Below, in pieces: positions 17,175-33,296 of a stretch of 59,112 nucleotides of DNA; the first letter of the stretch is position 1, and the number at the start of each line of letters is the position of its first letter. Origin of the DNA: a virus (lineage: Duplodnaviria; Caudoviricetes); the IMG/VR virus record IMGVR_UViG_3300022923_000017, positions 1 through 59,112 of that record, one strand, 5' to 3'. A model generated the notes under the pieces. That model saw only the letters and a list, made by a program, of their open reading frames with translations, did no database searches and was not told the origin of the DNA. Made by a program: the position numbers and the translations under genes.

Positions 17175-17597
17175 ATGATTGAACAAGAACTGGTTTCCTG
17201 GACTCCGGCCGACATGTTAGAGATATCTCTCGACGAGCCTGATGACTTCCTTAAAATTAAAGAAACACTGACGCGAATCGGTATCTCTTCGAAGAAAGAG
17301 CACAACACACTATATCAGAGTTGTCATATACTTCATAAACAAGGAAGGTATTTCATTGTTCACTTTAAGGAGTTATTCATGTTAGATGGAAAGCCTTCAA
17401 ACTTTACTCTAGACGATGTAGCTCGCCGCAATTCAATCACTACTCTATTATCTGATTGGGGACTTCTGACTATTGTCGATCTGAGCAAGGCTGAAGAAAA
17501 GACAACTCTTCGACATATCAAGATCATTTCTCATCGCGACAAACGTGAGTGGCAGTTAGAATCAAAATATTCTATTGGAAACGTTAGGAGTTCATAG
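17175..17597 (+). CDS. regA: translational repressor RegA
   Basis: DDFLKIKETLTRIGI, LYQSCHILHKQGRYFIVHFKELF. Confidence 0.96.
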   Translation: MIEQELVSWTPADMLEISLDEPDDFLKIKETLTRIGISSKKEHNTLYQSCHILHKQGRYFIVHFKELFMLDGKPSNFTLDDVARRNSITTLLSDWGLLTIVDLSKAEEKTTLRHIKIISHRDKREWQLESKYSIGNVRSS

Positions 17598-19136: not shown

Positions 19137-19223
19137 TTTAAGGTAACACGCTGTTACTTTAAATGAGATGCCCTCGGGGTCTCACAACAACATAACCCTG
19201 CCTAATAGGAGGAACAATAAATG
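19137..19223 (+). promoter_or_regulatory. structured 5' UTR of hsp20, ROSE-like RNA thermometer candidate
   Basis: Two hairpins, then CCUGCCU-AAU-AGGAGG sequestering the SD with a bulged G. Confidence 0.55.
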
Positions 19224-19661
19224 ACACAATACACAATCCCACGTTCGTGGACAATTGGTTTTGATTCTATCTTTGATAGACTTGAAAGCACTCAATCAAA
19301 CAACTCGACTTATCCGCCTCACAATGTAGTGAAGCACAGTGATACGAGTTTTGAAATAGCACTAGCTGTTGCTGGTTTTAAAGACAAAGACCTTGATGTA
19401 ACACTCGAAAAGAGTATCCTTACGATTGAAGGTGACAATGTATCGCTCAATGGCGATAAAGAATATATCCATAAGGGTATTGCTACACGTAAGTTCAAGA
19501 AACAATTTGATCTTGCTGAGCACATTAGAGTAGAACACGTTAGTATTACTGATGGTATTCTCTCGGTGTATCTCGAAAAAGAGGTACCAGAAGAACTTCA
19601 ACCTAAGAAGTTTACAATTCTTCAAGCGGCCCCTGGCGATCCAGAGTTCTTGACTGAATAA
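19221..19661 (+). CDS. hsp20: small heat-shock protein (Hsp20/IbpA family)
   Basis: IGFDSIFD, YPPHNV, IALAVAGF, YIHKGIATRKF, DGILSV. Confidence 0.93.
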   Translation: MTQYTIPRSWTIGFDSIFDRLESTQSNNSTYPPHNVVKHSDTSFEIALAVAGFKDKDLDVTLEKSILTIEGDNVSLNGDKEYIHKGIATRKFKKQFDLAEHIRVEHVSITDGILSVYLEKEVPEELQPKKFTILQAAPGDPEFLTE

Positions 19662-26300: not shown

Positions 26301-26543
26301 ATGAAAACAACAAAAAAAGATTTCATTACAGGAGCTGTAGTGATAACGATTGTATTAACCGCGATGGTTAATGCAGCACCTCAACCTATTTCAGAAATGG
26401 AAACAACTCCTCGCAACTGCTGCTGCTGTTGCTGTTGTCAAAATAAAGATGAAGTCATTTATACATCTGATGATGCTCAACAAGAGCCATCTACTTATCC
26501 AGTAAGTGAACCACCTCCACGCCCAGTTATACTCTCACGATAA
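26301..26543 (+). CDS. signal-peptide/TM protein with a seven-cysteine run
   Basis: TATAAATA at 26288; hydrophobic N-terminus; CCCCCCC. Confidence 0.55.
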   Translation: MKTTKKDFITGAVVITIVLTAMVNAAPQPISEMETTPRNCCCCCCCQNKDEVIYTSDDAQQEPSTYPVSEPPPRPVILSR

Positions 26544-26547
26544 TAAT

Positions 26548-26916
26548 ATGGAACAAAACCTATATCACTACAAAGCGCATATCACGAAGGTATATGATGG
26601 CGATACTGTAACAGCAGATATTCATCTTGGTTTCAATATGGTCATGCGTAAACAAAAGCTTCGTTTACTCGGCATTGATACACCTGAAATTCGAGGCGAA
26701 GAACGACCTGAAGGTCTGGTATCTCGAGATCGCTTGTCTGAACTCATTCTTAATACTGATGTTCACATCGTAACGCATCAAGATAAGAGCGGTAAATACG
26801 GCCGATGGTTAGTAACGATCTATGCGCAATTCCGCGATTTAGATAAAGACGAAACTAATTGGATAAACTGTAACGCTCTCCTACTCAACGAAAATTTAGC
26901 AAAGGTTTACAAATAA
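26548..26916 (+). CDS. thermonuclease (SNase)-like protein
   Basis: KVYDGDTV, RLLGIDTPE, GKYGRWL. Confidence 0.85.
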   Translation: MEQNLYHYKAHITKVYDGDTVTADIHLGFNMVMRKQKLRLLGIDTPEIRGEERPEGLVSRDRLSELILNTDVHIVTHQDKSGKYGRWLVTIYAQFRDLDKDETNWINCNALLLNENLAKVYK

Positions 26917-27680: not shown

Positions 27681-27704
27681 TAGATTTGTATAAATAATTT
27701 TATA

Positions 27705-27821
27705 ATGAAGAAAGTAAGTAGAACAAAATCAGACATCGCTTTAGATGTTATTTACTGGACAGCCGCAGCCATCGTGTTTGCGATGCTAGTAACTACACTT
27801 TATATGATGATGAAATTTTAA
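27705..27821 (+). CDS. small single-TM protein (38 aa)
   Basis: TATAAATA at 27689; MKKVSRTKSDIALDVIYWTAAAIVFAMLVTTLYMMMKF. Confidence 0.45.
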   Translation: MKKVSRTKSDIALDVIYWTAAAIVFAMLVTTLYMMMKF

Positions 27822-27896
27822 TGCGAAGTAACTCAGCGGTAGAGTAGAGCACTGTTAATGCTTTTGTCGTAGGTTCGATCCCTACCTTCGCAGCCA
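27822..27896 (+). tRNA. tRNA-Asn(GTT)
   Basis: Acceptor TGCGAAG/CTTCGCA, anticodon loop CTGTTAA, GGTTCGATCC, encoded CCA. Confidence 0.92.
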
Positions 27897-27995
27897 GATT
27901 TAATCTACATATCAAAACACCAAAGTGATATGTAGATTGAAACAAACAGTTTCCAAAATGGAAACACCTCAATAACAACACACACACAAAAAACA

Positions 27996-28250
27996 ATGAG
28001 CACAAATAAATCAATGAACGCATACGAGATTCGTCTCAAAATCCTACAAGAAGCACTGTCTTCAGCATCCGATAAGTGGTACTCTGAAAAAGAAGTACTC
28101 TTCGAAGAGTGGAACAACAAGCGGCATGCATGTGGTGAAGACACTGTTGCCCTATCTGCACTCGATACACCGACACTCCCGTCATGGGATCGAGAAGTTG
28201 AAGCGATCCGAATCGCGAAGAAGCTATACGCTTTCGTAGAAGGCGAATAA
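27996..28250 (+). CDS. hypothetical protein
   Basis: NAYEIRLKILQEA...IAKKLYAFV pattern. Confidence 0.6.
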   Translation: MSTNKSMNAYEIRLKILQEALSSASDKWYSEKEVLFEEWNNKRHACGEDTVALSALDTPTLPSWDREVEAIRIAKKLYAFVEGE

Positions 28251-28343
28251 GTCTAAGAACCTGAGTTTGTAATTCCTCTGCGAATGCGGAGGTTGATAAT
28301 GAGGATAAGGATTGCGTTTAGCGGTCGACTCCCTCACACCTTT

Positions 28344-28420
28344 GGACGCATAGCTTAATTGGTTAAAGCAGCGGATTCATAATCCGTTGAGTCTGGGTTC
28401 AAGTCCCAGTGGGTCCACCA
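28344..28420 (+). tRNA. tRNA with CAT anticodon (probably Ile2, possibly Met)
   Basis: Cloverleaf, loop TTCATAA, paired G1-C72 (so not initiator), C4-G69, encoded CCA; G5:G68 mismatch. Confidence 0.88.
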
Positions 28421-28428
28421 CTTTATTA

Positions 28429-28457
28429 TTTACAATCAATAACACATATGGTATAAT
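28429..28457 (+). promoter_or_regulatory. early-type promoter
   Basis: TTTACA-17-TATAAT, ATG 6 nt downstream. Confidence 0.75.
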
Positions 28458-28463
28458 TACATT

Positions 28464-28724
28464 ATGCAAACAGTAAAACACACATACCGAGAAATGCTTA
28501 CTTATACTCGTGACGAATACACTACGCGCGATAGGTCTATTAACGTAGATACTAATAAAGAAACTAAAGACGTAACAGTCGAAGTCACTCTTTTTAGTCC
28601 AATCGCAGATCGTGTATTCGATCGCCTCGACGATGAAAGCCGAACTGGTTGGGCTGAAGCTTTCTTTGACGGAAAAAACGCACCAATCATTCCGAGCTAC
28701 ACGCTTTTGCGTAAAGGACATTAA
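28464..28724 (+). CDS. hypothetical protein
   Basis: ORF directly under promoter, between tRNAs. Confidence 0.6.
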   Translation: MQTVKHTYREMLTYTRDEYTTRDRSINVDTNKETKDVTVEVTLFSPIADRVFDRLDDESRTGWAEAFFDGKNAPIIPSYTLLRKGH

Positions 28725-28730
28725 TTGAAT

Positions 28731-28807
28731 GCTCCGATAGCTCAGTTGGATAGAGCAACGGTTTTCTAAACCGTGGGCCGCAGGTTCAAGTCCTGCTCGG
28801 AGTACCA
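28731..28807 (+). tRNA. tRNA-Arg(TCT)
   Basis: Acceptor GCTCCGA/TCGGAGT, loop TTTCTAA, GGTTCAAGTCC, encoded CCA. Confidence 0.93.
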
Positions 28808-28814
28808 TTTTCAT

Positions 28815-28882
28815 GGGGGTGTAATGGATTCGATCTCAGTTTCGGCTGAGACACGGAGGTTCAATTCCTCCCACCTCCACCA
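28815..28882 (+). ncRNA. minimal tmRNA-like RNA (tRNA-like domain only)
   Basis: GGGGGTG/CACCTCC-ACCA acceptor with G3:U70; stemless D-loop TAATGGATTCGA; 7-bp UUCG-capped helix; T-arm GGAGG-TTCAATT-CCTCC. Confidence 0.8.
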
Positions 28883-28890
28883 TTTTAATA

Positions 28891-28919
28891 TGTACAATTA
28901 GTGACATATAGGTTATAAT
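28891..28919 (+). promoter_or_regulatory. early-type promoter for gp42
   Basis: TGTACA-17-TATAAT, ATG 6 nt downstream. Confidence 0.7.
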
Positions 28920-28925
28920 TATATT

Positions 28926-29672
28926 ATGCAAAATACAGTTAAAGACATACAAGATTTTTTCATCCGCAAACGCCGAAATGAAGAATACGTTGAAGACAAG
29001 ACAGGTGTAAAAACCATTGAAATTATTAATGCAAGTTTCATCGCGAATGAACCTACTATCTTTGGTAAAATCAATCTAGATTATGTTCAACGCGAACTAG
29101 ATTGGTATCTTTCTAAATCGTTAAACGTAAACGATATTCCAGGTGAAACACCACAGATTTGGAGTATGATCTCTGATGATAACGGTATGATCCATTCTAA
29201 CTATGGATACCTTACTCTTTCAGAAGAGAATCATAATCAATTCAAAAACTGTGTCGCAGAACTTAAGAAGAATCCAAATTCTCGCCGTGCAGTTATGATT
29301 TATACACGTCCAACTATTTGGAACGAGTATAACACAGATGGTATGTCTGATTTCATATGTACAAACGCAGTTCAGTATCTTATCCGCAATGGTAAACTTG
29401 ACGTAGTTGTTCAAATGCGATCGAATGATGTTGTCTTTGGTTATCGTAATGACTTTGCATGGCAAGAACATATCGCTAATATGGTGTGTACTAAACTTGG
29501 CATTAAGCTTGGTAACATCCACTGGAATGTTGGATCGATGCATGTGTATGAACGTCACTTTAAATTCATTGATGCAGAGATCGAAAGACAAAATCATATT
29601 TCTGATCTAGAATATGAAGAATACACCGCAATGTCCGAATGGGCCCACCAAGTGAGTAAGTTTTATGATTAA
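28926..29672 (+). CDS. gp42: dCMP hydroxymethyltransferase
   Basis: GMSDFICTNAVQYLIR, MRSNDVVFGYRNDFAWQ (Asp specificity residue for dCMP), SMHVYERHF; closely resembles T4 gp42. Confidence 0.9.
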   Translation: MQNTVKDIQDFFIRKRRNEEYVEDKTGVKTIEIINASFIANEPTIFGKINLDYVQRELDWYLSKSLNVNDIPGETPQIWSMISDDNGMIHSNYGYLTLSEENHNQFKNCVAELKKNPNSRRAVMIYTRPTIWNEYNTDGMSDFICTNAVQYLIRNGKLDVVVQMRSNDVVFGYRNDFAWQEHIANMVCTKLGIKLGNIHWNVGSMHVYERHFKFIDAEIERQNHISDLEYEEYTAMSEWAHQVSKFYD

Positions 29673-30108
29673 CATGGAATTTAACGCAGCTGACTTAGAC
29701 ACATCTGTATTGCTTTCTCGAGCTAAAGAAGAGTCTGAACAAATGTTTTCAAAAGAGTCTACTCGTCGAGGAAGATCACTTCAGAAGATCATTGAAACAG
29801 CACTATATGGCCATGCAGCTGAGTTATACCTCATTGAGAAATGTCAATTCAAAGATGATCCTCGAAAGTATAAAGATCTCTTTGACACTGAAGGAAACTC
29901 AGTAGAGGTCAAAGTTACAGAAGGAGATTATTACGTTCCTTATGTTTTAGATAGGGCAACTAAAGCAAAACTAGAAACATGGAGAGGTTTCCCTGATATC
30001 CTATATGTCTTTATCGGCGATAAGATCACCGCTGACTATAGCCTTTATGGAATATATAAGTGGAGTGAGAATAAATTTGTTTTACAAGAGTCACCAACTA
30101 TGGTATAA
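29665..30108 (+). CDS. DenB (endonuclease IV)-like PD-(D/E)XK nuclease
   Basis: IIE...AELYL, DDPRKYKD, GNSVEVK resemble recalled T4 DenB VIE...AEFFV, DDPYTYAWD, GLRVEVK. Confidence 0.6.
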   Translation: MINMEFNAADLDTSVLLSRAKEESEQMFSKESTRRGRSLQKIIETALYGHAAELYLIEKCQFKDDPRKYKDLFDTEGNSVEVKVTEGDYYVPYVLDRATKAKLETWRGFPDILYVFIGDKITADYSLYGIYKWSENKFVLQESPTMV

Positions 30109-30109
30109 T
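30081..30109 (+). promoter_or_regulatory. early-type promoter
   Basis: TTTACA-17-TATAAT, ATG 6 nt downstream. Confidence 0.75.
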
Positions 30110-30115
30110 AACAGT

Positions 30116-30463
30116 ATGAAAGAATCAATTAAAGTATTAGAAGAATGCGCCGAACTACAGGCAAAGAAAAGCACGGATTACCAGAATCCGAATAGCCGCA
30201 TTAAACAAGCAGACTATTACCCACGTGGGATTGCGTCTATCCTTGACATTATTTATGCCAAGACTCTTCGGATGTATTCTGTAATTGAAGCAATGGAAAG
30301 TGATCCGAATTATAAGCAAAACTTTGAATCGGTTGAAGATTCGGGTAAAGATCTTATTAACTACGCGTCGTTTCTTGTTTCATATTTGCGGAATGGAATT
30401 GATGGTCAAGATCCTGAACGCGACTTCCTTAATCGCAAAGAGCATACCGATGACAACACGTAA
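30116..30463 (+). CDS. nucleotide-modification-associated all-alpha protein (DUF1599/Nmad1-like)
   Basis: KKSTDY, K..R, ESVEDSGKDLINYA. Confidence 0.7.
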   Translation: MKESIKVLEECAELQAKKSTDYQNPNSRIKQADYYPRGIASILDIIYAKTLRMYSVIEAMESDPNYKQNFESVEDSGKDLINYASFLVSYLRNGIDGQDPERDFLNRKEHTDDNT

Positions 30464-30890
30464 ATGGCATAAACGCTATATCGAGTTAGCTCGTACTATT
30501 GCCCAGTGGTCGCGTGATCCTTCAACACAATGTGGTGCAGTAATTATTGGTCAATCTGGTCAAGTTCTATCTCAAGGTTATAATGGCTTCCCTCGAGGTA
30601 TGAGTGACGATGAAGAACTCTATAATGACCGCAATTCAAAGTATAGTCGCATTGTTCATGCCGAGATGAATGCGATCTATAACGCATCTCGTACTGGAGT
30701 ATCTTTAGAAGGTGCAACAGCATACATCCACGGACTTCCATGCTGCCATGAATGTGCTAAAGCTTTAATCCAAGTTGGAATTAAAGAAGTAATTATGAGC
30801 GAGTCGAACAATATTCGATGGAATAATTCATGCGGAATGGGAACAGGCTTCCTTGAAGAAGCAGGCGTAAAAGTCACGTACATAAAATAA
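30450..30890 (+). CDS. cd: dCMP deaminase
   Basis: SRDPSTQCGA, GYNG, HAEMNA, PCCHECAK. Confidence 0.9.
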   Translation: MTTRKWHKRYIELARTIAQWSRDPSTQCGAVIIGQSGQVLSQGYNGFPRGMSDDEELYNDRNSKYSRIVHAEMNAIYNASRTGVSLEGATAYIHGLPCCHECAKALIQVGIKEVIMSESNNIRWNNSCGMGTGFLEEAGVKVTYIK

Positions 30891-30904
30891 CAATAAATAA
30901 ATCT

Positions 30905-32116
30905 ATGAAGAATATAGCAATAATCATGGGCCGCGGCATCGAAGGATGCGGAGTAACAAAATTCACAGTAGAACAGTGCAAGTACTACGAACGTAATGGG
31001 TACGACTATAAAGTCTTTGCATCTAAAGACAAATCTTGGACGCGCAAAAACTCGCATAAGACAGATAACATCCAACAACTCAAATTCGCAAAAAGTGATG
31101 AAGTGGATGCGATGATCAAGTGTATCAATAAATCTGATATAGCTATCATCAACTCTTTGCCTGCTCTAAGTTTAAAAGAAGAAGCAATTCAAAACTTTAA
31201 ACGTATGTTAAGCGAAATCGAAGTACCTGTTGCGCTTATTCAACATGATCATGCCATGCAATCCATCCGTCGCAATGGAGCACTGGATGAAGCGATCAAA
31301 AAGGCAAACATCATATTTGTTCATTCAACAACTAATGATTTTGCAAAATATGCAAAAGAAAAGGTAGGGCCAAAGGTAGATTTGTTTGGTGCTGAAGAAG
31401 GTACTCCTATCGTTGCGTTTCAACCAGGTATGTTCTTCGATGAAGTAAAGTCAAAGTATTGGAAAACAAAGATTGGCGTTCAGGACGTAATGCATCACAA
31501 ATGGATTGGTAGAACTACATCTTGGAAGGGGTATAAAGAAATGTTTGCTTTTCATAATGCTTATTTGAAGCAAAACGATATGCTAACAACTTACGAAGGC
31601 ATCGAACGTTCACCTGCATTTTTAGGATTTAGAGAACTTTCAGAATTTAATAATTTACTCGCTGAAGATCCTAATGAATACGATTTAAACGATGGCTATG
31701 GCAGTGATGTTCATGTCTTTGGACCATATGTTCAAGAAGAAATGCTTGAACGAATGTCTAAAGTAGGATTTGGTTATCAACTTTCAAGAATGAAAGAACA
31801 TTTTATTCAGCGATCAATTGAATACACTCATTGCGAAGTTGCATGTACTGGCACAATTCCTGTTTTTAATAAAAAGTATGGTGACGCATGTACTCACCGC
31901 CACTATGGAAAAAAGTTTACTGAGTGTGAAAATACTGGAACGGTATGGTTTGATGAACACAATTTTGATAGTACGTTTAACATGATATTAGATCTATTTG
32001 ATCATCCCGAAAAACGACAAAAAATGAGAAACGATGCATATGAGTTTTATAAACTTCATCAAGACGCATCATACACCTTTAAAGAACTAATGGAAAACAT
32101 ACAAAATGTCATATAA
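30905..32116 (+). CDS. agt: DNA alpha-glucosyltransferase-like
   Basis: RGIEGCGVTKF, QHDH, WIGRTTSWKG, EGIERSPAF, EYTHCEVACTGTIPVF all match T4 a-gt pattern. Confidence 0.88.
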   Translation: MKNIAIIMGRGIEGCGVTKFTVEQCKYYERNGYDYKVFASKDKSWTRKNSHKTDNIQQLKFAKSDEVDAMIKCINKSDIAIINSLPALSLKEEAIQNFKRMLSEIEVPVALIQHDHAMQSIRRNGALDEAIKKANIIFVHSTTNDFAKYAKEKVGPKVDLFGAEEGTPIVAFQPGMFFDEVKSKYWKTKIGVQDVMHHKWIGRTTSWKGYKEMFAFHNAYLKQNDMLTTYEGIERSPAFLGFRELSEFNNLLAEDPNEYDLNDGYGSDVHVFGPYVQEEMLERMSKVGFGYQLSRMKEHFIQRSIEYTHCEVACTGTIPVFNKKYGDACTHRHYGKKFTECENTGTVWFDEHNFDSTFNMILDLFDHPEKRQKMRNDAYEFYKLHQDASYTFKELMENIQNVI

Positions 32117-33296
32117 CTACGCATCAATCGTACCACTTATTGGTGGTGAAACAATCGCAATGGAAAACGTCTTTGGAAAAAGACCTGAGTACATCTTATC
32201 ATATACACCATTTGCGGCGAATGATTCGCAAATATTAGAACACTACAAAAACGAAGTACCATACCATGTCATCGACGAAGGTACTGGTAGAACTGATTAT
32301 GTTGATGTGGTAAATGCGGTTTGTCCTTGTGCAGGATTGTCTTCGCTAAGTCCATCATCTTCATCTGACAATAAAGCAAATGATTGGATGGTCGAATCCG
32401 CAAAATACGTTTTAGGTGAAGTGAAACCAAAGGTCTTTTGGGGCGAAAACGCGCCACGATTAGCATCAAAGATGGGAGCACCAATCGTTAAAGAACTAAG
32501 GAAGGTTGCAAAGGAAAATGGTTATACAATGTCGCTCTATAAGACTAAATCTAAACTTCATGGTTTAAGTCAAACCCGCGATCGATCTTTTTACTTCTTT
32601 TGGAAAGGTGATGAAATACCTCACATGAATTTTTATCGTCGACCTCACGAAAAGATCGAGGACACTATTCGAAACGCGTTTGTAAGTGAAGATGATCCAA
32701 TGAACGAGCTTACAAACAAGAACAAACCCAGTGATAACCCATTCTATAAGTATATACTTGAAGAGCTCGAAGGTGGTATTACACACAAGGAGTTTCAAAA
32801 CAAAATCGAGAAAACTATAAACCCTTTAGACTATTTGGAAAACCGTGGTATTGAATATGACGAAGTTTCTGAATGGATGACGGCAAATGGATTTGACAAG
32901 CAAGCTAAACGCTGTTTGGAGATCCATAAGAAACTCAAATCAGGCGGCAATATCATGAGGAAGACTACTGAAATTCCTAAGGATTATATCGGTGCATTTG
33001 TAGGTCACATGCCTACATGTCTAACACACCCTGACGAAGACCGTTATCTTACCATCCGCGAATGTATGGCTATCATGAAATTACCATCTGACTTTCAGTT
33101 GCAGGGCGGTAGAAAAAACTTAAATATGATTTGTCAAAATGTCCCAGTGACAACTGCAGAAGATATGGCACAAAATATTCTTGATTGGTTAAATGGAAAA
33201 TTGGATACAAGGCAAGCAGAATTTGCAGTCTTTGACAATAAGACATCTACAGTACAGTACGAAGACGTACCTCAAACCCTTGAATCATTCATTTAA
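32106..33296 (+). CDS. C5-cytosine methyltransferase-like protein with atypical motifs I and X
   Basis: PCAGLS (IV), ENAPRL (VI), QTRDR (VIII), RYLTIREC (IX). Confidence 0.8.
   Translation: MSYNYASIVPLIGGETIAMENVFGKRPEYILSYTPFAANDSQILEHYKNEVPYHVIDEGTGRTDYVDVVNAVCPCAGLSSLSPSSSSDNKANDWMVESAKYVLGEVKPKVFWGENAPRLASKMGAPIVKELRKVAKENGYTMSLYKTKSKLHGLSQTRDRSFYFFWKGDEIPHMNFYRRPHEKIEDTIRNAFVSEDDPMNELTNKNKPSDNPFYKYILEELEGGITHKEFQNKIEKTINPLDYLENRGIEYDEVSEWMTANGFDKQAKRCLEIHKKLKSGGNIMRKTTEIPKDYIGAFVGHMPTCLTHPDEDRYLTIRECMAIMKLPSDFQLQGGRKNLNMICQNVPVTTAEDMAQNILDWLNGKLDTRQAEFAVFDNKTSTVQYEDVPQTLESFI

What the first reader, a model, noticed from the sequence alone, without database searches (positions are those of the whole stretch)
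28815..28882. Minimal tmRNA: tRNA-like domain with the entire mRNA/tag region replaced by a UUCG loop
Seen: 7 nt after tRNA-Arg lies a 68-nt RNA with tmRNA-type ends (GGGGGUGUAAUGGAUUCGA ... GGAGGUUCAAUUCCUCCCACCUCCACCA). It has the G3:U70/A73 alanine identity, no D-stem and no anticodon loop, and its helix 2 is UCUCAGU-UUCG-GCUGAGA. Established: this domain is what AlaRS, EF-Tu and SmpB bind; the tag frame lies in the missing part; tagless tmRNAs are known from some protist mitochondria. Inference: a phage SmpB decoy that blocks trans-translation, or a tag-free rescue RNA that adds Ala without marking phage proteins for proteolysis. Fully preserved pairing argues against a decayed tRNA. I do not know of this form being described in phages.
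Basis: partly seen in the sequence, partly recalled or inferred. Interest (0 to 1): 0.88.

Follow-up and report, generated by a model that had tools for sequence, protein, structure and literature searches.

The report
Phage mini-tmRNA lacking the tag template
A T4-like phage encodes a 68-base RNA that is only the tRNA-like end of the bacterial ribosome-rescue RNA (tmRNA); one phage example was already known, but the same form turns up in many uncultured phages.

Summary
Window 28815-28882 (+), 7 nt after tRNA-Arg, matches Rfam tmRNA at 56 bits (cut-off 47), with 326 model positions replaced by 20 nt. ARAGORN does not call it.

It is neither an artefact nor a one-off deletion. Four pattern scans of IMG/VR plus my covariance model gave 72 distinct sequences of this architecture (57-83 nt; window and DS6A included). 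These lie in at least 121 viral contigs. Of the paired cells, 98.5% pair, and 14 of 18 pairs show compensatory changes. G3:U70, the UCGA of the D-loop analogue and the A two bases before the T stem are invariant (72 of 72).

The form is not new to phages. Mycobacteriophage DS6A is listed as "TLD only" (Hudson 2014). Two papers report, citing Mao 2009, that such an RNA inhibits tmRNA in E. coli.

Most likely mechanism: the RNA is processed like a tRNA, charged with alanine, bound by host SmpB, and competes with host tmRNA. This is inferred, not shown.

One result argues against simple inhibition: one 211-kb phage lineage carries both a full tagging tmRNA and a mini one.

Verdict: a new member of a known kind. 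Its breadth among phages was not found in print. Interest 0.6.

The parts
28815..28882 (+). Mini-tmRNA gene (TLD-only tmRNA), 68 nt
   Evidence: RF00023 at 56 bits, above the cut-off of 47; my model R1 at 76.8 bits; identical copies in L005, L009 and L013, and a one-base variant in L006, L007 and L010
28815..28821 (+). Acceptor stem 5' strand GGGGGUG, including G3 of the G3:U70 pair
   Evidence: Pairs with 28872-28878. Pairs 1-3 are invariant in 72 of 72 sequences; pairs 4-7 show compensatory changes
28822..28833 (+). D-loop analogue UAAUGGAUUCGA with no D stem; its UCGA is at 28830-28833
   Evidence: Matches the Rfam consensus GGaUUCG. UCGA is present in 72 of 72 aligned sequences, and in 44 of 46 found with a pattern that did not impose it. 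In E. coli, C18 and G19 stack on SmpB (PMC8363625); mapping them to this motif is from my recall of E. coli numbering
28834..28851 (+). Helix-2 stub: UCUCAGU, UUCG loop, GCUGAGA; it replaces the tag template and pseudoknots
   Evidence: Fold. All 6 modelled pairs show compensatory changes across the family, with 95.4% of cells paired
28852..28854 (+). Junction CAC; A28853 is the invariant A two bases before the T stem
   Evidence: A in 72 of 72 sequences, and never part of a search pattern. I take it as the equivalent of E. coli A334, part of the SmpB Trp122 pocket (PMC8363625); the mapping is recalled
28855..28871 (+). T arm GGAGG-UUCAAUU-CCUCC
   Evidence: 4 of 5 stem pairs show compensatory changes
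28872..28882 (+). Acceptor 3' strand CACCUCC (U70 at 28876), discriminator A73 (28879) and encoded CCA (28880-28882)
   Evidence: U70 and A73 are present in 15 of 15 relatives found with a pattern that left the 3' end free. CCA is encoded in 51 of 72
28731..28807 (+). tRNA-Arg(tct), 7 nt upstream; probably on the same precursor
   Evidence: ARAGORN; Rfam tRNA at 71 bits. In relatives the mini-tmRNA is also the last gene of the tRNA array (L005, L006)
28429..28457 (+). Sigma-70-like promoter candidate (TTTACA-17-TATAAT, 11 of 12, extended TG) upstream of ORF 28464-28724, tRNA-Arg and the mini-tmRNA
   Evidence: Consensus scan only: 9 sites found against 6.8 expected, so this is weak
27822..28420 (+). 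Rest of the tRNA array: tRNA-Asn 27822-27896 and tRNA-Met 28344-28420, separated by small ORFs

Best explanation
The 68-nt gene encodes a genuine tmRNA homologue reduced to its tRNA-like domain, under purifying selection.

Proposed mechanism; every step is inferred.
1. It is transcribed with the phage tRNA array.
2. RNase P and the 3' tRNA-processing enzymes cut it out.
3. Host AlaRS charges it with alanine through G1:C72, G2:C71, G3:U70 and A73.
4. Host SmpB binds it through the UCGA and A motifs of the elbow, and EF-Tu binds the charged form.
5. It has no resume codon, tag frame or stop codon. It therefore competes with host tmRNA for SmpB and for stalled ribosomes.

The net effect would be that SsrA tagging is reduced or bypassed during infection, along with what follows from it: proteolysis of tagged chains and decay of non-stop mRNA. 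At most one alanine would be added. The phage supplies no SmpB of its own in the sequence examined.
For: Identity:
- RF00023 matches at 56 bits against a cut-off of 47.
- 13 of 16 other carriers that I tested also pass the cut-off.

Selection:
- The RNA is 100% or 98.5% identical in relatives whose flanking genes are 70-85% identical and rearranged.
- In contigs of four coded runs there are 0-1 differences across 28748-28882. Flanking pieces show 13 in 569, 23 in 723 and 24 in 263 letters.

Family and structure:
- 72 distinct sequences have 98.5% of cells paired, against 73.5% in shuffles and 50-59% when partners are slid. 14 of 18 pairs show compensatory changes.

Alanine identity:
- G1:C72, G2:C71 and G3:U70 are present in 72 of 72 sequences, while pairs 4-7 vary.
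- U70 and A73 are present in 15 of 15 hits from a scan that left the 3' end free.

SmpB contacts:
- UCGA and the pre-T-stem A are present in 72 of 72.
- UCGA is present in 44 of 46 sequences when it was not imposed.
- C18, G19 and A334 contact SmpB in cryo-EM structures (PMC8363625, passages).

Competence of such RNAs:
- A truncated tmRNA with SmpB and EF-Tu was crystallised on the ribosome (as cited in PMC8363625).
- Peptidyl transfer to a TLD-only tmRNA occurs (Shimizu and Ueda 2006, as cited in PMC3895274).

Inhibition:
- The DS6A form inhibits endogenous tmRNA in E. coli (PMC11915505).
- Both statements cite Mao 2009, which I could not read.

No phage SmpB:
- 0 of 10 carrier records have one.
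- None was found among 40 small ORFs of the window.
Against: - Nothing was measured for this RNA. Transcription, processing, charging and SmpB binding are all inferred.
- RNA-library contigs cover the gene, but so do DNA contigs of the same study, and the tool warns that this does not show transcription.
- The host is unknown.
- If SmpB titration were the whole function, charging would not be needed, according to Mao 2009 as cited. Yet the alanine identity set is invariant, which suggests the charged form matters.
- One phage lineage, G001 (211 kb, CheckV 100%) and G002, encodes both a mini-tmRNA and a full 376-nt tmRNA with an ...LALAA tag. A plain inhibitor would also block the phage's own tmRNA.
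- Many phages carry full tmRNAs (402 of 18,146 genomes, PMC9004378). So more trans-translation, not less, may often suit phages.
Confidence: 0.5

Rival explanations
1. Tag-free ribosome rescue. Ala-mini-tmRNA with SmpB and EF-Tu enters ribosomes stalled on broken mRNAs and accepts the nascent chain. The peptidyl-RNA is then released by host factors (ArfA/RF2, ArfB, or drop-off plus Pth). Ribosomes are recycled for phage translation without marking products for proteolysis.
For: The alanine identity set is invariant. Peptidyl transfer to a TLD-only tmRNA occurs in vitro (as cited in PMC3895274). CDS-less tmRNAs are retained together with SmpB in mitochondria and are thought to help with incomplete mRNAs (PMC11915505). 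Coexistence with a full tmRNA in G001 and G002 suggests a separate, non-antagonistic role.
Against: There is no stop codon, so release depends on other factors. No RF-1 domain (ArfB-type) protein was found in 0 of 5 carrier records, and none among the 40 window ORFs scanned. The experiments reported second-hand found inhibition, not rescue.
Confidence: 0.25
2. Counter-defence decoy. The RNA mimics the tmRNA or tRNA elbow to occupy or mislead a host immune protein that binds or cleaves tmRNA or tRNA-like RNAs. Candidates include effectors with SmpB-like domains.
For: CoCoNuT restriction systems carry SmpB-like domains predicted to bind tmRNA (PMC11090510, passages). Phage tRNA arrays sit beside the gene. 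The form is rare in cellular genomes: about 11 strong hits in one genome for each of 185,579 species. It is common in viral contigs.
Against: Purely circumstantial. No defence gene or partner protein recurs next to the RNA; the neighbours are replication genes. It also does not explain the alanine identity.
Confidence: 0.1
3. No function of its own: a decayed tmRNA or tRNA-Ala copy, an attP remnant of integration into ssrA, or only a processing or stabilising signal at the end of the tRNA transcript.
For: It lies at the 3' end of a tRNA array. Phages often carry 3' ssrA fragments as attachment sites (PMC9004378). Many pattern hits in my scans were such 3' fragments.
Against: Both halves are present and pair. 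There are compensatory changes in all three helices and invariant unpaired motifs over 72 sequences. It is conserved above the neighbouring genes. It occurs in a T4-like phage, and often without any tRNA nearby: 25 of 35 loci had no tRNA called.
Confidence: 0.05
4. A D-arm-less decoding tRNA whose middle hairpin is an anticodon arm.
For: Three-helix layout with acceptor and T arms. ARAGORN miscalls two family members as a 91-nt tRNA-Glu.
Against: The loop is 4 nt here and varies widely in length and sequence across the family, with no anticodon-loop signature. The Rfam tmRNA model beats the tRNA model.
Confidence: 0.02

Closest known systems
Mycobacteriophage DS6A 'TLD only' tmRNA (tmRNA Website tmID 11587; Phage__Mycobacterium.9)
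   Same: Phage-encoded, standard (not permuted) order. It has an acceptor stem with G3:U70, a D-loop analogue, a helix-2 stub and a T arm, and no tag frame. My model scores it 59.5 bits, and RF00023 finds it at NC_023744 28478-28560.
   Different: DS6A is 83 nt with a longer stub, has GUCGA instead of UUCGA, ends ...CCACTA (no encoded CCA), scores below the Rfam cut-off (43.2 bits) and sits in a temperate siphovirus of mycobacteria without a tRNA array. The window RNA is 68 nt, encodes CCA and ends a tRNA array in a T4-like phage.
Bacterial tmRNA (SsrA), Rfam RF00023
   Same: The 5' and 3' ends align to model positions 1-18 and 345-374 with near-consensus sequence. The alanine identity and the SmpB-contact nucleotides are the same.
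   Different: It lacks the resume codon, tag reading frame, stop codon, helix 5 and all four pseudoknots: 326 model positions are replaced by 20 nt. ARAGORN finds no tag.
CDS-less organellar tmRNAs (jakobid and oomycete mitochondria; Mallomonadaceae plastids, about 65 bp)
   Same: tmRNA reduced to the tRNA-like part and thought to work with SmpB (PMC11915505).
   Different: The mitochondrial genes are usually permuted and live in organelles with a dedicated imported SmpB. The phage RNA is in standard order and must use the host's SmpB. No RF02544 match was listed for the window, though 3 lower-scoring clan matches were hidden.
Engineered truncated tmRNA (TLD) constructs used in SmpB and ribosome structures and in kinetics
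   Same: Same design: acceptor, D-loop analogue, short helix 2 closed by a loop, and T arm. Such constructs bind SmpB and EF-Tu on the ribosome and accept peptide (as cited in PMC8363625 and PMC3895274).
   Different: Those are laboratory constructs. I did not see their sequences, so the likeness is by description only.
Full-length phage tmRNAs (for example the Bxz1 group, two-piece Melnitz ssrA, and the 376-nt gene in G001)
   Same: Phage-borne ssrA homologues (PMC4131195; PMC9004378).
   Different: They keep a tag frame (G001: ANNIVRFEDFTACGEELALAA) and are found by ARAGORN. The mini form is not: 0 of 35 loci were called as tmRNA.

Membership tests
tmRNA (SsrA, RF00023), full functional molecule | Score at or above the Rfam gathering threshold | tested here: met
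   56.0 bits against 47
tmRNA (SsrA, RF00023), full functional molecule | tRNA-like domain: 7-bp acceptor stem with G3:U70, A73 and CCA; T arm; D-loop analogue without a D stem | tested here: met
   Sequence and fold
tmRNA (SsrA, RF00023), full functional molecule | mRNA-like domain: resume codon, tag reading frame, stop codon | tested here: not met
   Only 20 nt, forming a hairpin, lie between the two TLD halves; ARAGORN finds no tmRNA or tag
tmRNA (SsrA, RF00023), full functional molecule | Pseudoknots PK1-PK4 and helix 5 | tested here: not met
   326 model positions are absent
tmRNA (SsrA, RF00023), full functional molecule | Alanylation by AlaRS; binding of SmpB and EF-Tu | not testable with these tools
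   Only the sequence determinants are seen
TLD-only ('standard, no CDS') tmRNA, phage DS6A type | Both TLD halves in standard order joined by a short helix-2 stub; 57-85 nt; no CDS | tested here: met
   aligned with DS6A in A2 and A5
TLD-only ('standard, no CDS') tmRNA, phage DS6A type | Encoded by a phage | tested here: met
   The window carries T4-like genes: gp43-type polymerase, gp21 protease, gp19, UvsY, gp45, clamp loader and RegA
TLD-only ('standard, no CDS') tmRNA, phage DS6A type | Conserved as an RNA: covariation, and conservation above the flanks | tested here: met
TLD-only ('standard, no CDS') tmRNA, phage DS6A type | Inhibits endogenous tmRNA when expressed | not testable with these tools
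   Known only second-hand for DS6A and a similar molecule
tRNA (RF00005) | D stem, 7-nt anticodon loop, and being the best-scoring clan member | tested here: not met
   The tRNA model was out-scored at this place; ARAGORN makes no call; the loop is 4 nt
Permuted or mitochondrial tmRNA (RF04321, RF02544) | Acceptor 3' piece lies before the 5' piece in the gene | tested here: not met
   The order is standard. RF04321 gives only 18.2 bits on the 3' half

The most novel reading that the evidence does not exclude
Mini-tmRNAs are a widespread, overlooked class of phage RNAs: at least 71 distinct sequences in at least 121 IMG/VR contigs, from T4-like to small Erf/SSB-type and 200-kb phages. They are selected to be charged with alanine, not merely to soak up SmpB. 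On this reading they reprogramme ribosome rescue during infection into a one-alanine, tag-less reaction. That would spare phage nascent chains and non-stop mRNAs from the SsrA degradation route, or counter translation-targeting abortive-infection systems. It would be a function distinct from the full tagging tmRNA that some of the same phages also carry.
Probability: 0.3. Interest if true: 0.8.

Novelty: new member of a known kind. Interest (0 to 1): 0.6.

Why it matters
Trans-translation is the main ribosome-rescue path of bacteria and a drug target. How phages deal with it is poorly known.

A TLD-only tmRNA was so far a curiosity of one mycobacteriophage. The 2025 tmRNA database lists 9 "standard, no CDS" sequences among 97,179, and 79 phage sequences in all. 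I found the form in a marine or salt-marsh T4-like phage and in dozens of unrelated uncultured phages. In all of them the alanine identity and the SmpB-contact nucleotides are invariant. This suggests a general phage strategy aimed at SmpB and stalled ribosomes.

The RNA is small enough to test directly in E. coli. It also exposes an annotation gap. ARAGORN misses the form: 0 of 35 loci were called as tmRNA, and 2 were miscalled as tRNA-Glu. Rfam labels it simply "tmRNA", which hides that the tag is missing.

Tried and rejected
- **Close relatives among cultured phages.** Megablast of 27700-29700 found only 56-nt tRNA matches. Blastn of the 68 nt found 17 records, all covering 43% or less. The three I opened (Marcie, Phabba, BtpYZU04) are ordinary tRNAs.
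- **Other family members among cultured phages.** I ran blastn with four other family members. This gave only 3' halves in Acinetobacter, Alcaligenes, Synechococcus and Streptomyces phages. The four I opened score 27-36 bits with R1 and are not this form. Apart from DS6A, I found no cultured carrier; this was a limited search, not a full scan.
- **Expression.** Logan contigs of two metatranscriptome runs cover the gene and bridge tRNA-Arg to it. A DNA run of the same study does the same, and contigs cannot show ends or levels. No conclusion on transcription.
- **Host.** No genome is held for the window. The polymerase is at most 48% identical to any phage in the collection. I did not find a host tmRNA to compare with; the single genome-contig scan went on looking for mini forms.
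- **Partner protein.** No gene family recurs next to the RNA across lineages. The shared neighbours are SSB, Erf, exonuclease and DnaB within two phage groups.
- **Folding energy.** This is weak evidence on its own.
- **Literature.** Searches found no paper describing many phage TLD-only tmRNAs. The library lacks most subscription journals, and supplements were closed. The supplementary tables of PMC11915505 may list further no-CDS phage entries.
- **Ascertainment limits.**
  - Patterns imposed TTCGA, the 3' TCCACCA, or the acceptor sequence.
  - I therefore quote each invariant from a scan that did not impose it.
  - Alignments A2 and A5 were fitted to the model structure.
  - The first set was pre-filtered for at least 6 of 7 acceptor pairs.
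  - Rows dropped: hits below E 1e-6, and two odd sequences without UCGA (L276, L334).

Full report
**Observation.** The stretch 28815-28882 (+) reads GGGGGUGUAAUGGAUUCGA-UCUCAGU-UUCG-GCUGAGA-CAC-GGAGGUUCAAUUCCUCC-CACCUCC-ACCA. It starts 7 nt after tRNA-Arg(tct), which ARAGORN places at 28731-28807. Rfam's tmRNA model RF00023 matches exactly these coordinates. The score is 56.0 bits against a gathering score of 47, and E is 2.6e-19 for the whole window. The 5' end aligns to model positions 1-18 and the 3' end to the last 30 positions. The 326 positions between them are replaced by 20 nt. ARAGORN calls nothing there. The minimum-energy fold is acceptor stem, 7-bp hairpin with a UUCG loop, and T arm. 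Its z-score is only -2.33, so the fold energy by itself proves little.

**The carrier.** The window is part of a T4-like phage. It encodes:
- a gp43-type DNA polymerase, at best 48% identical to any phage in the collection;
- the gp21-type prohead protease, gp19, UvsY, the gp45 clamp, a clamp loader and RegA;
- just downstream of the RNA, a thymidylate-synthase-like gene, a dCMP deaminase and an alpha-glucosyltransferase.

No whole genome is held. The stretch, or close relatives of it, occurs in contigs of salt-marsh and marine metagenome runs: 13 runs hold at least half of the sampled words.

**It is real and conserved.**
- IMG/VR holds contigs 95% and 98% identical to the window (L009, L013), with the identical RNA.
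- More distant relatives (L005, L006, L007, L010) have flanking genes only 70-85% identical and in another order. Their RNA is still 68 of 68 or 67 of 68 identical, like the neighbouring tRNAs at 95-98%.
- Contigs of four coded runs show 0-1 differences over 28748-28882. Flanking pieces show 13 in 569, 23 in 723 and 24 in 263 letters.

So this is not an assembly deletion, and it is under stronger constraint than the protein genes around it.

**A family, not a singleton.** I ran four pattern scans of IMG/VR.

| Scan | Pattern constraint | Result |
|---|---|---|
| | window-like motifs | 10 loci |
| | acceptor-anchored, no D-loop motif | complete scan; 93 contigs, 46 distinct sequences |

A covariance model built from the first set (R1) separates these hits (45-77 bits) from 3' tmRNA fragments and tRNAs. 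The final alignment holds 72 distinct sequences of 57-83 nt, median 67: the window, DS6A and 70 from IMG/VR. One of these sequences occurs in 121 of the 277 held IMG/VR loci. That is a lower bound.

**Structure.** On the 72 sequences, 98.5% of cells form a standard pair. Shuffled controls give 73.5%, and sliding the partner gives 50-59%. Compensatory changes occur in 14 of 18 pairs: 4 of 7 in the acceptor stem, 6 of 6 in the hairpin and 4 of 5 in the T stem (the first 28 sequences are). The alignment was fitted to the model, and the first set was filtered for acceptor pairing. The hairpin pairs and the three outer T-stem pairs were never selected for.

**What does not vary.**
- G1:C72, G2:C71 and G3:U70 are present in 72 of 72, while pairs 4-7 change freely.
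- In the scan that left the 3' end free, U70, C71, C72 and A73 were present in 15 of 15 hits, although only 1 of the 15 encodes CCA. Overall, 51 of 72 encode CCA.
- In the unpaired parts, U-C-G-A of the D-loop analogue and the A two bases before the T stem are present in 72 of 72.
- UCGA was present in 44 of 46 sequences from the scan that did not impose it. The A was never imposed.

The cryo-EM study of tmRNA-SmpB on the ribosome reports two sets of contacts. SmpB Trp122 sits in a pocket made by A15, U17 and A334, and C18-G19 stack on SmpB; a G19C change abolishes function (PMC8363625, passages). By my recalled E. coli numbering, these are the nucleotides kept here. The invariant set therefore coincides with the AlaRS identity elements (a recalled assignment) and the SmpB contact surface.

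**Context.**
- In the window and its relatives the RNA is the last gene of a tRNA array. A good sigma-70-like promoter candidate lies at 28429-28457 (weak evidence).
- In other lineages it stands without any tRNA: no tRNA was called in 25 of 35 loci. There it lies among replication and recombination genes: SSB, Erf, exonuclease, DnaB-type helicase.
- No SmpB gene was found in 10 of 10 carrier records searched, two of them at least 90% complete. No RF-1-domain protein was found in 5 of 5. Neither appeared among 40 small ORFs of the window.
- In one genome for each of 185,579 prokaryote species, the specific pattern hit 50 places. About 11 of these score 54 bits or more with R1, mostly in MAG contigs. 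The form looks mainly phage-borne.

**An awkward fact.** The 211-kb record G001 (CheckV 100%) and its relative G002 carry the mini-tmRNA and also a full 376-nt tmRNA. The full gene scores 128 bits and has the tag ANNIVRFEDFTACGEELALAA. The two tRNA-like domains differ in acceptor and T stems. The mini is therefore not a fresh deletion copy, and the two genes are presumably not redundant. This is one lineage only. The other 8 records, and the window's 59 kb, show only the mini form.

**What is known.**
- Hudson, Lau and Williams (2014) list "Mycobacterium phage DS6A (TLD only)". They write that a similar molecule, chargeable or not, strongly inhibits tmRNA, perhaps by titrating SmpB, citing Mao et al. 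2009 (PMC4131195, passages).
- The 2025 database paper repeats that the DS6A form inhibits endogenous tmRNA in E. coli. It reports about 65-bp CDS-less plastid genes. It counts 9 "standard, no CDS" sequences among 97,179, and 79 phage sequences (PMC11915505, passages).
- I located the DS6A gene at 28478-28560 of NC_023744. It is unannotated and scores 43.2 bits, below the cut-off.
- I could not read Mao 2009. Supplements were closed.
- A survey of phage tmRNAs that used ARAGORN found 402 of 18,146 genomes with tmRNA, all of them tag-bearing forms (PMC9004378, passages). ARAGORN missed the mini form in 35 of 35 loci here.
- Five literature searches found no account of TLD-only tmRNAs as a common phage feature.

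**Mechanism.** Shown here: homology to the tmRNA tRNA-like domain, absence of any template, conservation, covariation, and invariance of the AlaRS and SmpB determinants.

Taken from the literature, second-hand: TLD-only RNAs bind SmpB and EF-Tu on the ribosome, accept a peptide, and inhibit tagging in vivo.

Inferred: the phage RNA is cut from the tRNA precursor, charged with alanine, bound by host SmpB, and competes with host tmRNA.

I put 0.5 on net interference with, or bypass of, tagging. I put 0.25 on productive tag-free rescue, and 0.1 on a counter-defence decoy. The decoy idea draws on predicted defence proteins with SmpB-like domains (PMC11090510). The remainder goes to non-function or a tRNA role, which the data disfavour. 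The invariant alanine identity and the G001 coexistence both argue that a passive SmpB sponge is not the whole story.

**Verdict.** The window's RNA is a new member of a known but barely populated kind.

Noticed in passing
window 28926-33296: Directly downstream lies a base-modification module: a thymidylate-synthase-family gene (possibly a dCMP hydroxymethylase), a dCMP deaminase (30285-30890), an alpha-glucosyltransferase (30905-32116) and a methyltransferase-like gene (32106-33296). This suggests glucosyl-hydroxymethyl-cytosine DNA, as in T-even phages.
   Followed up: partly
G001:C1:55016-55391 (L337 217-592, minus strand) and G001:C1:8632-8704: A 211-kb viral record carries a full 376-nt tmRNA with tag ANNIVRFEDFTACGEELALAA as well as a 73-nt mini-tmRNA with a different acceptor and T stem. 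G002 has the same pair.
   Followed up: partly
L090 1991-2081 and L108 8486-8576: ARAGORN miscalls the mini-tmRNA plus 24 upstream bases as a 91-nt tRNA-Glu. In 0 of 35 carrier loci did it report a tmRNA.
   Followed up: yes
L276 12931-12996 and L334: Two 69-70-nt sequences share the GGGGGTG/CACCTCC acceptor and the T arm but lack the UCGA motif. They did not reach E 1e-6 with model R1. They may be a different D-arm-less tRNA-like RNA.
   Followed up: no
L230 6308-6373 and 6146-6224; L224 494-559; L236 994-1059: Mini-tmRNA-like hits occur in contigs binned as archaeal (Iainarchaeum MAG, two copies 84 nt apart) and twice in one Opitutales MAG. These may be mis-binned phage or prophage DNA.
   Followed up: no
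window 28251-28393: In contigs of RNA-library runs X18 and X19, a related strain replaces these 143 bases, which include the 5' part of tRNA-Met, with 59 other letters (table 5).
   Followed up: no
L090 871-1073: A RAGATH-24 RNA (RF03049, 54.1 bits against a cut-off of 45.3) lies about 1 kb upstream of the mini-tmRNA in one carrier contig.
   Followed up: no
window 17175-17597, 19221-19661, 26506-26916: A RegA translational repressor, an Hsp20-family protein and a staphylococcal-nuclease homologue are encoded near the tRNA region.
   Followed up: no
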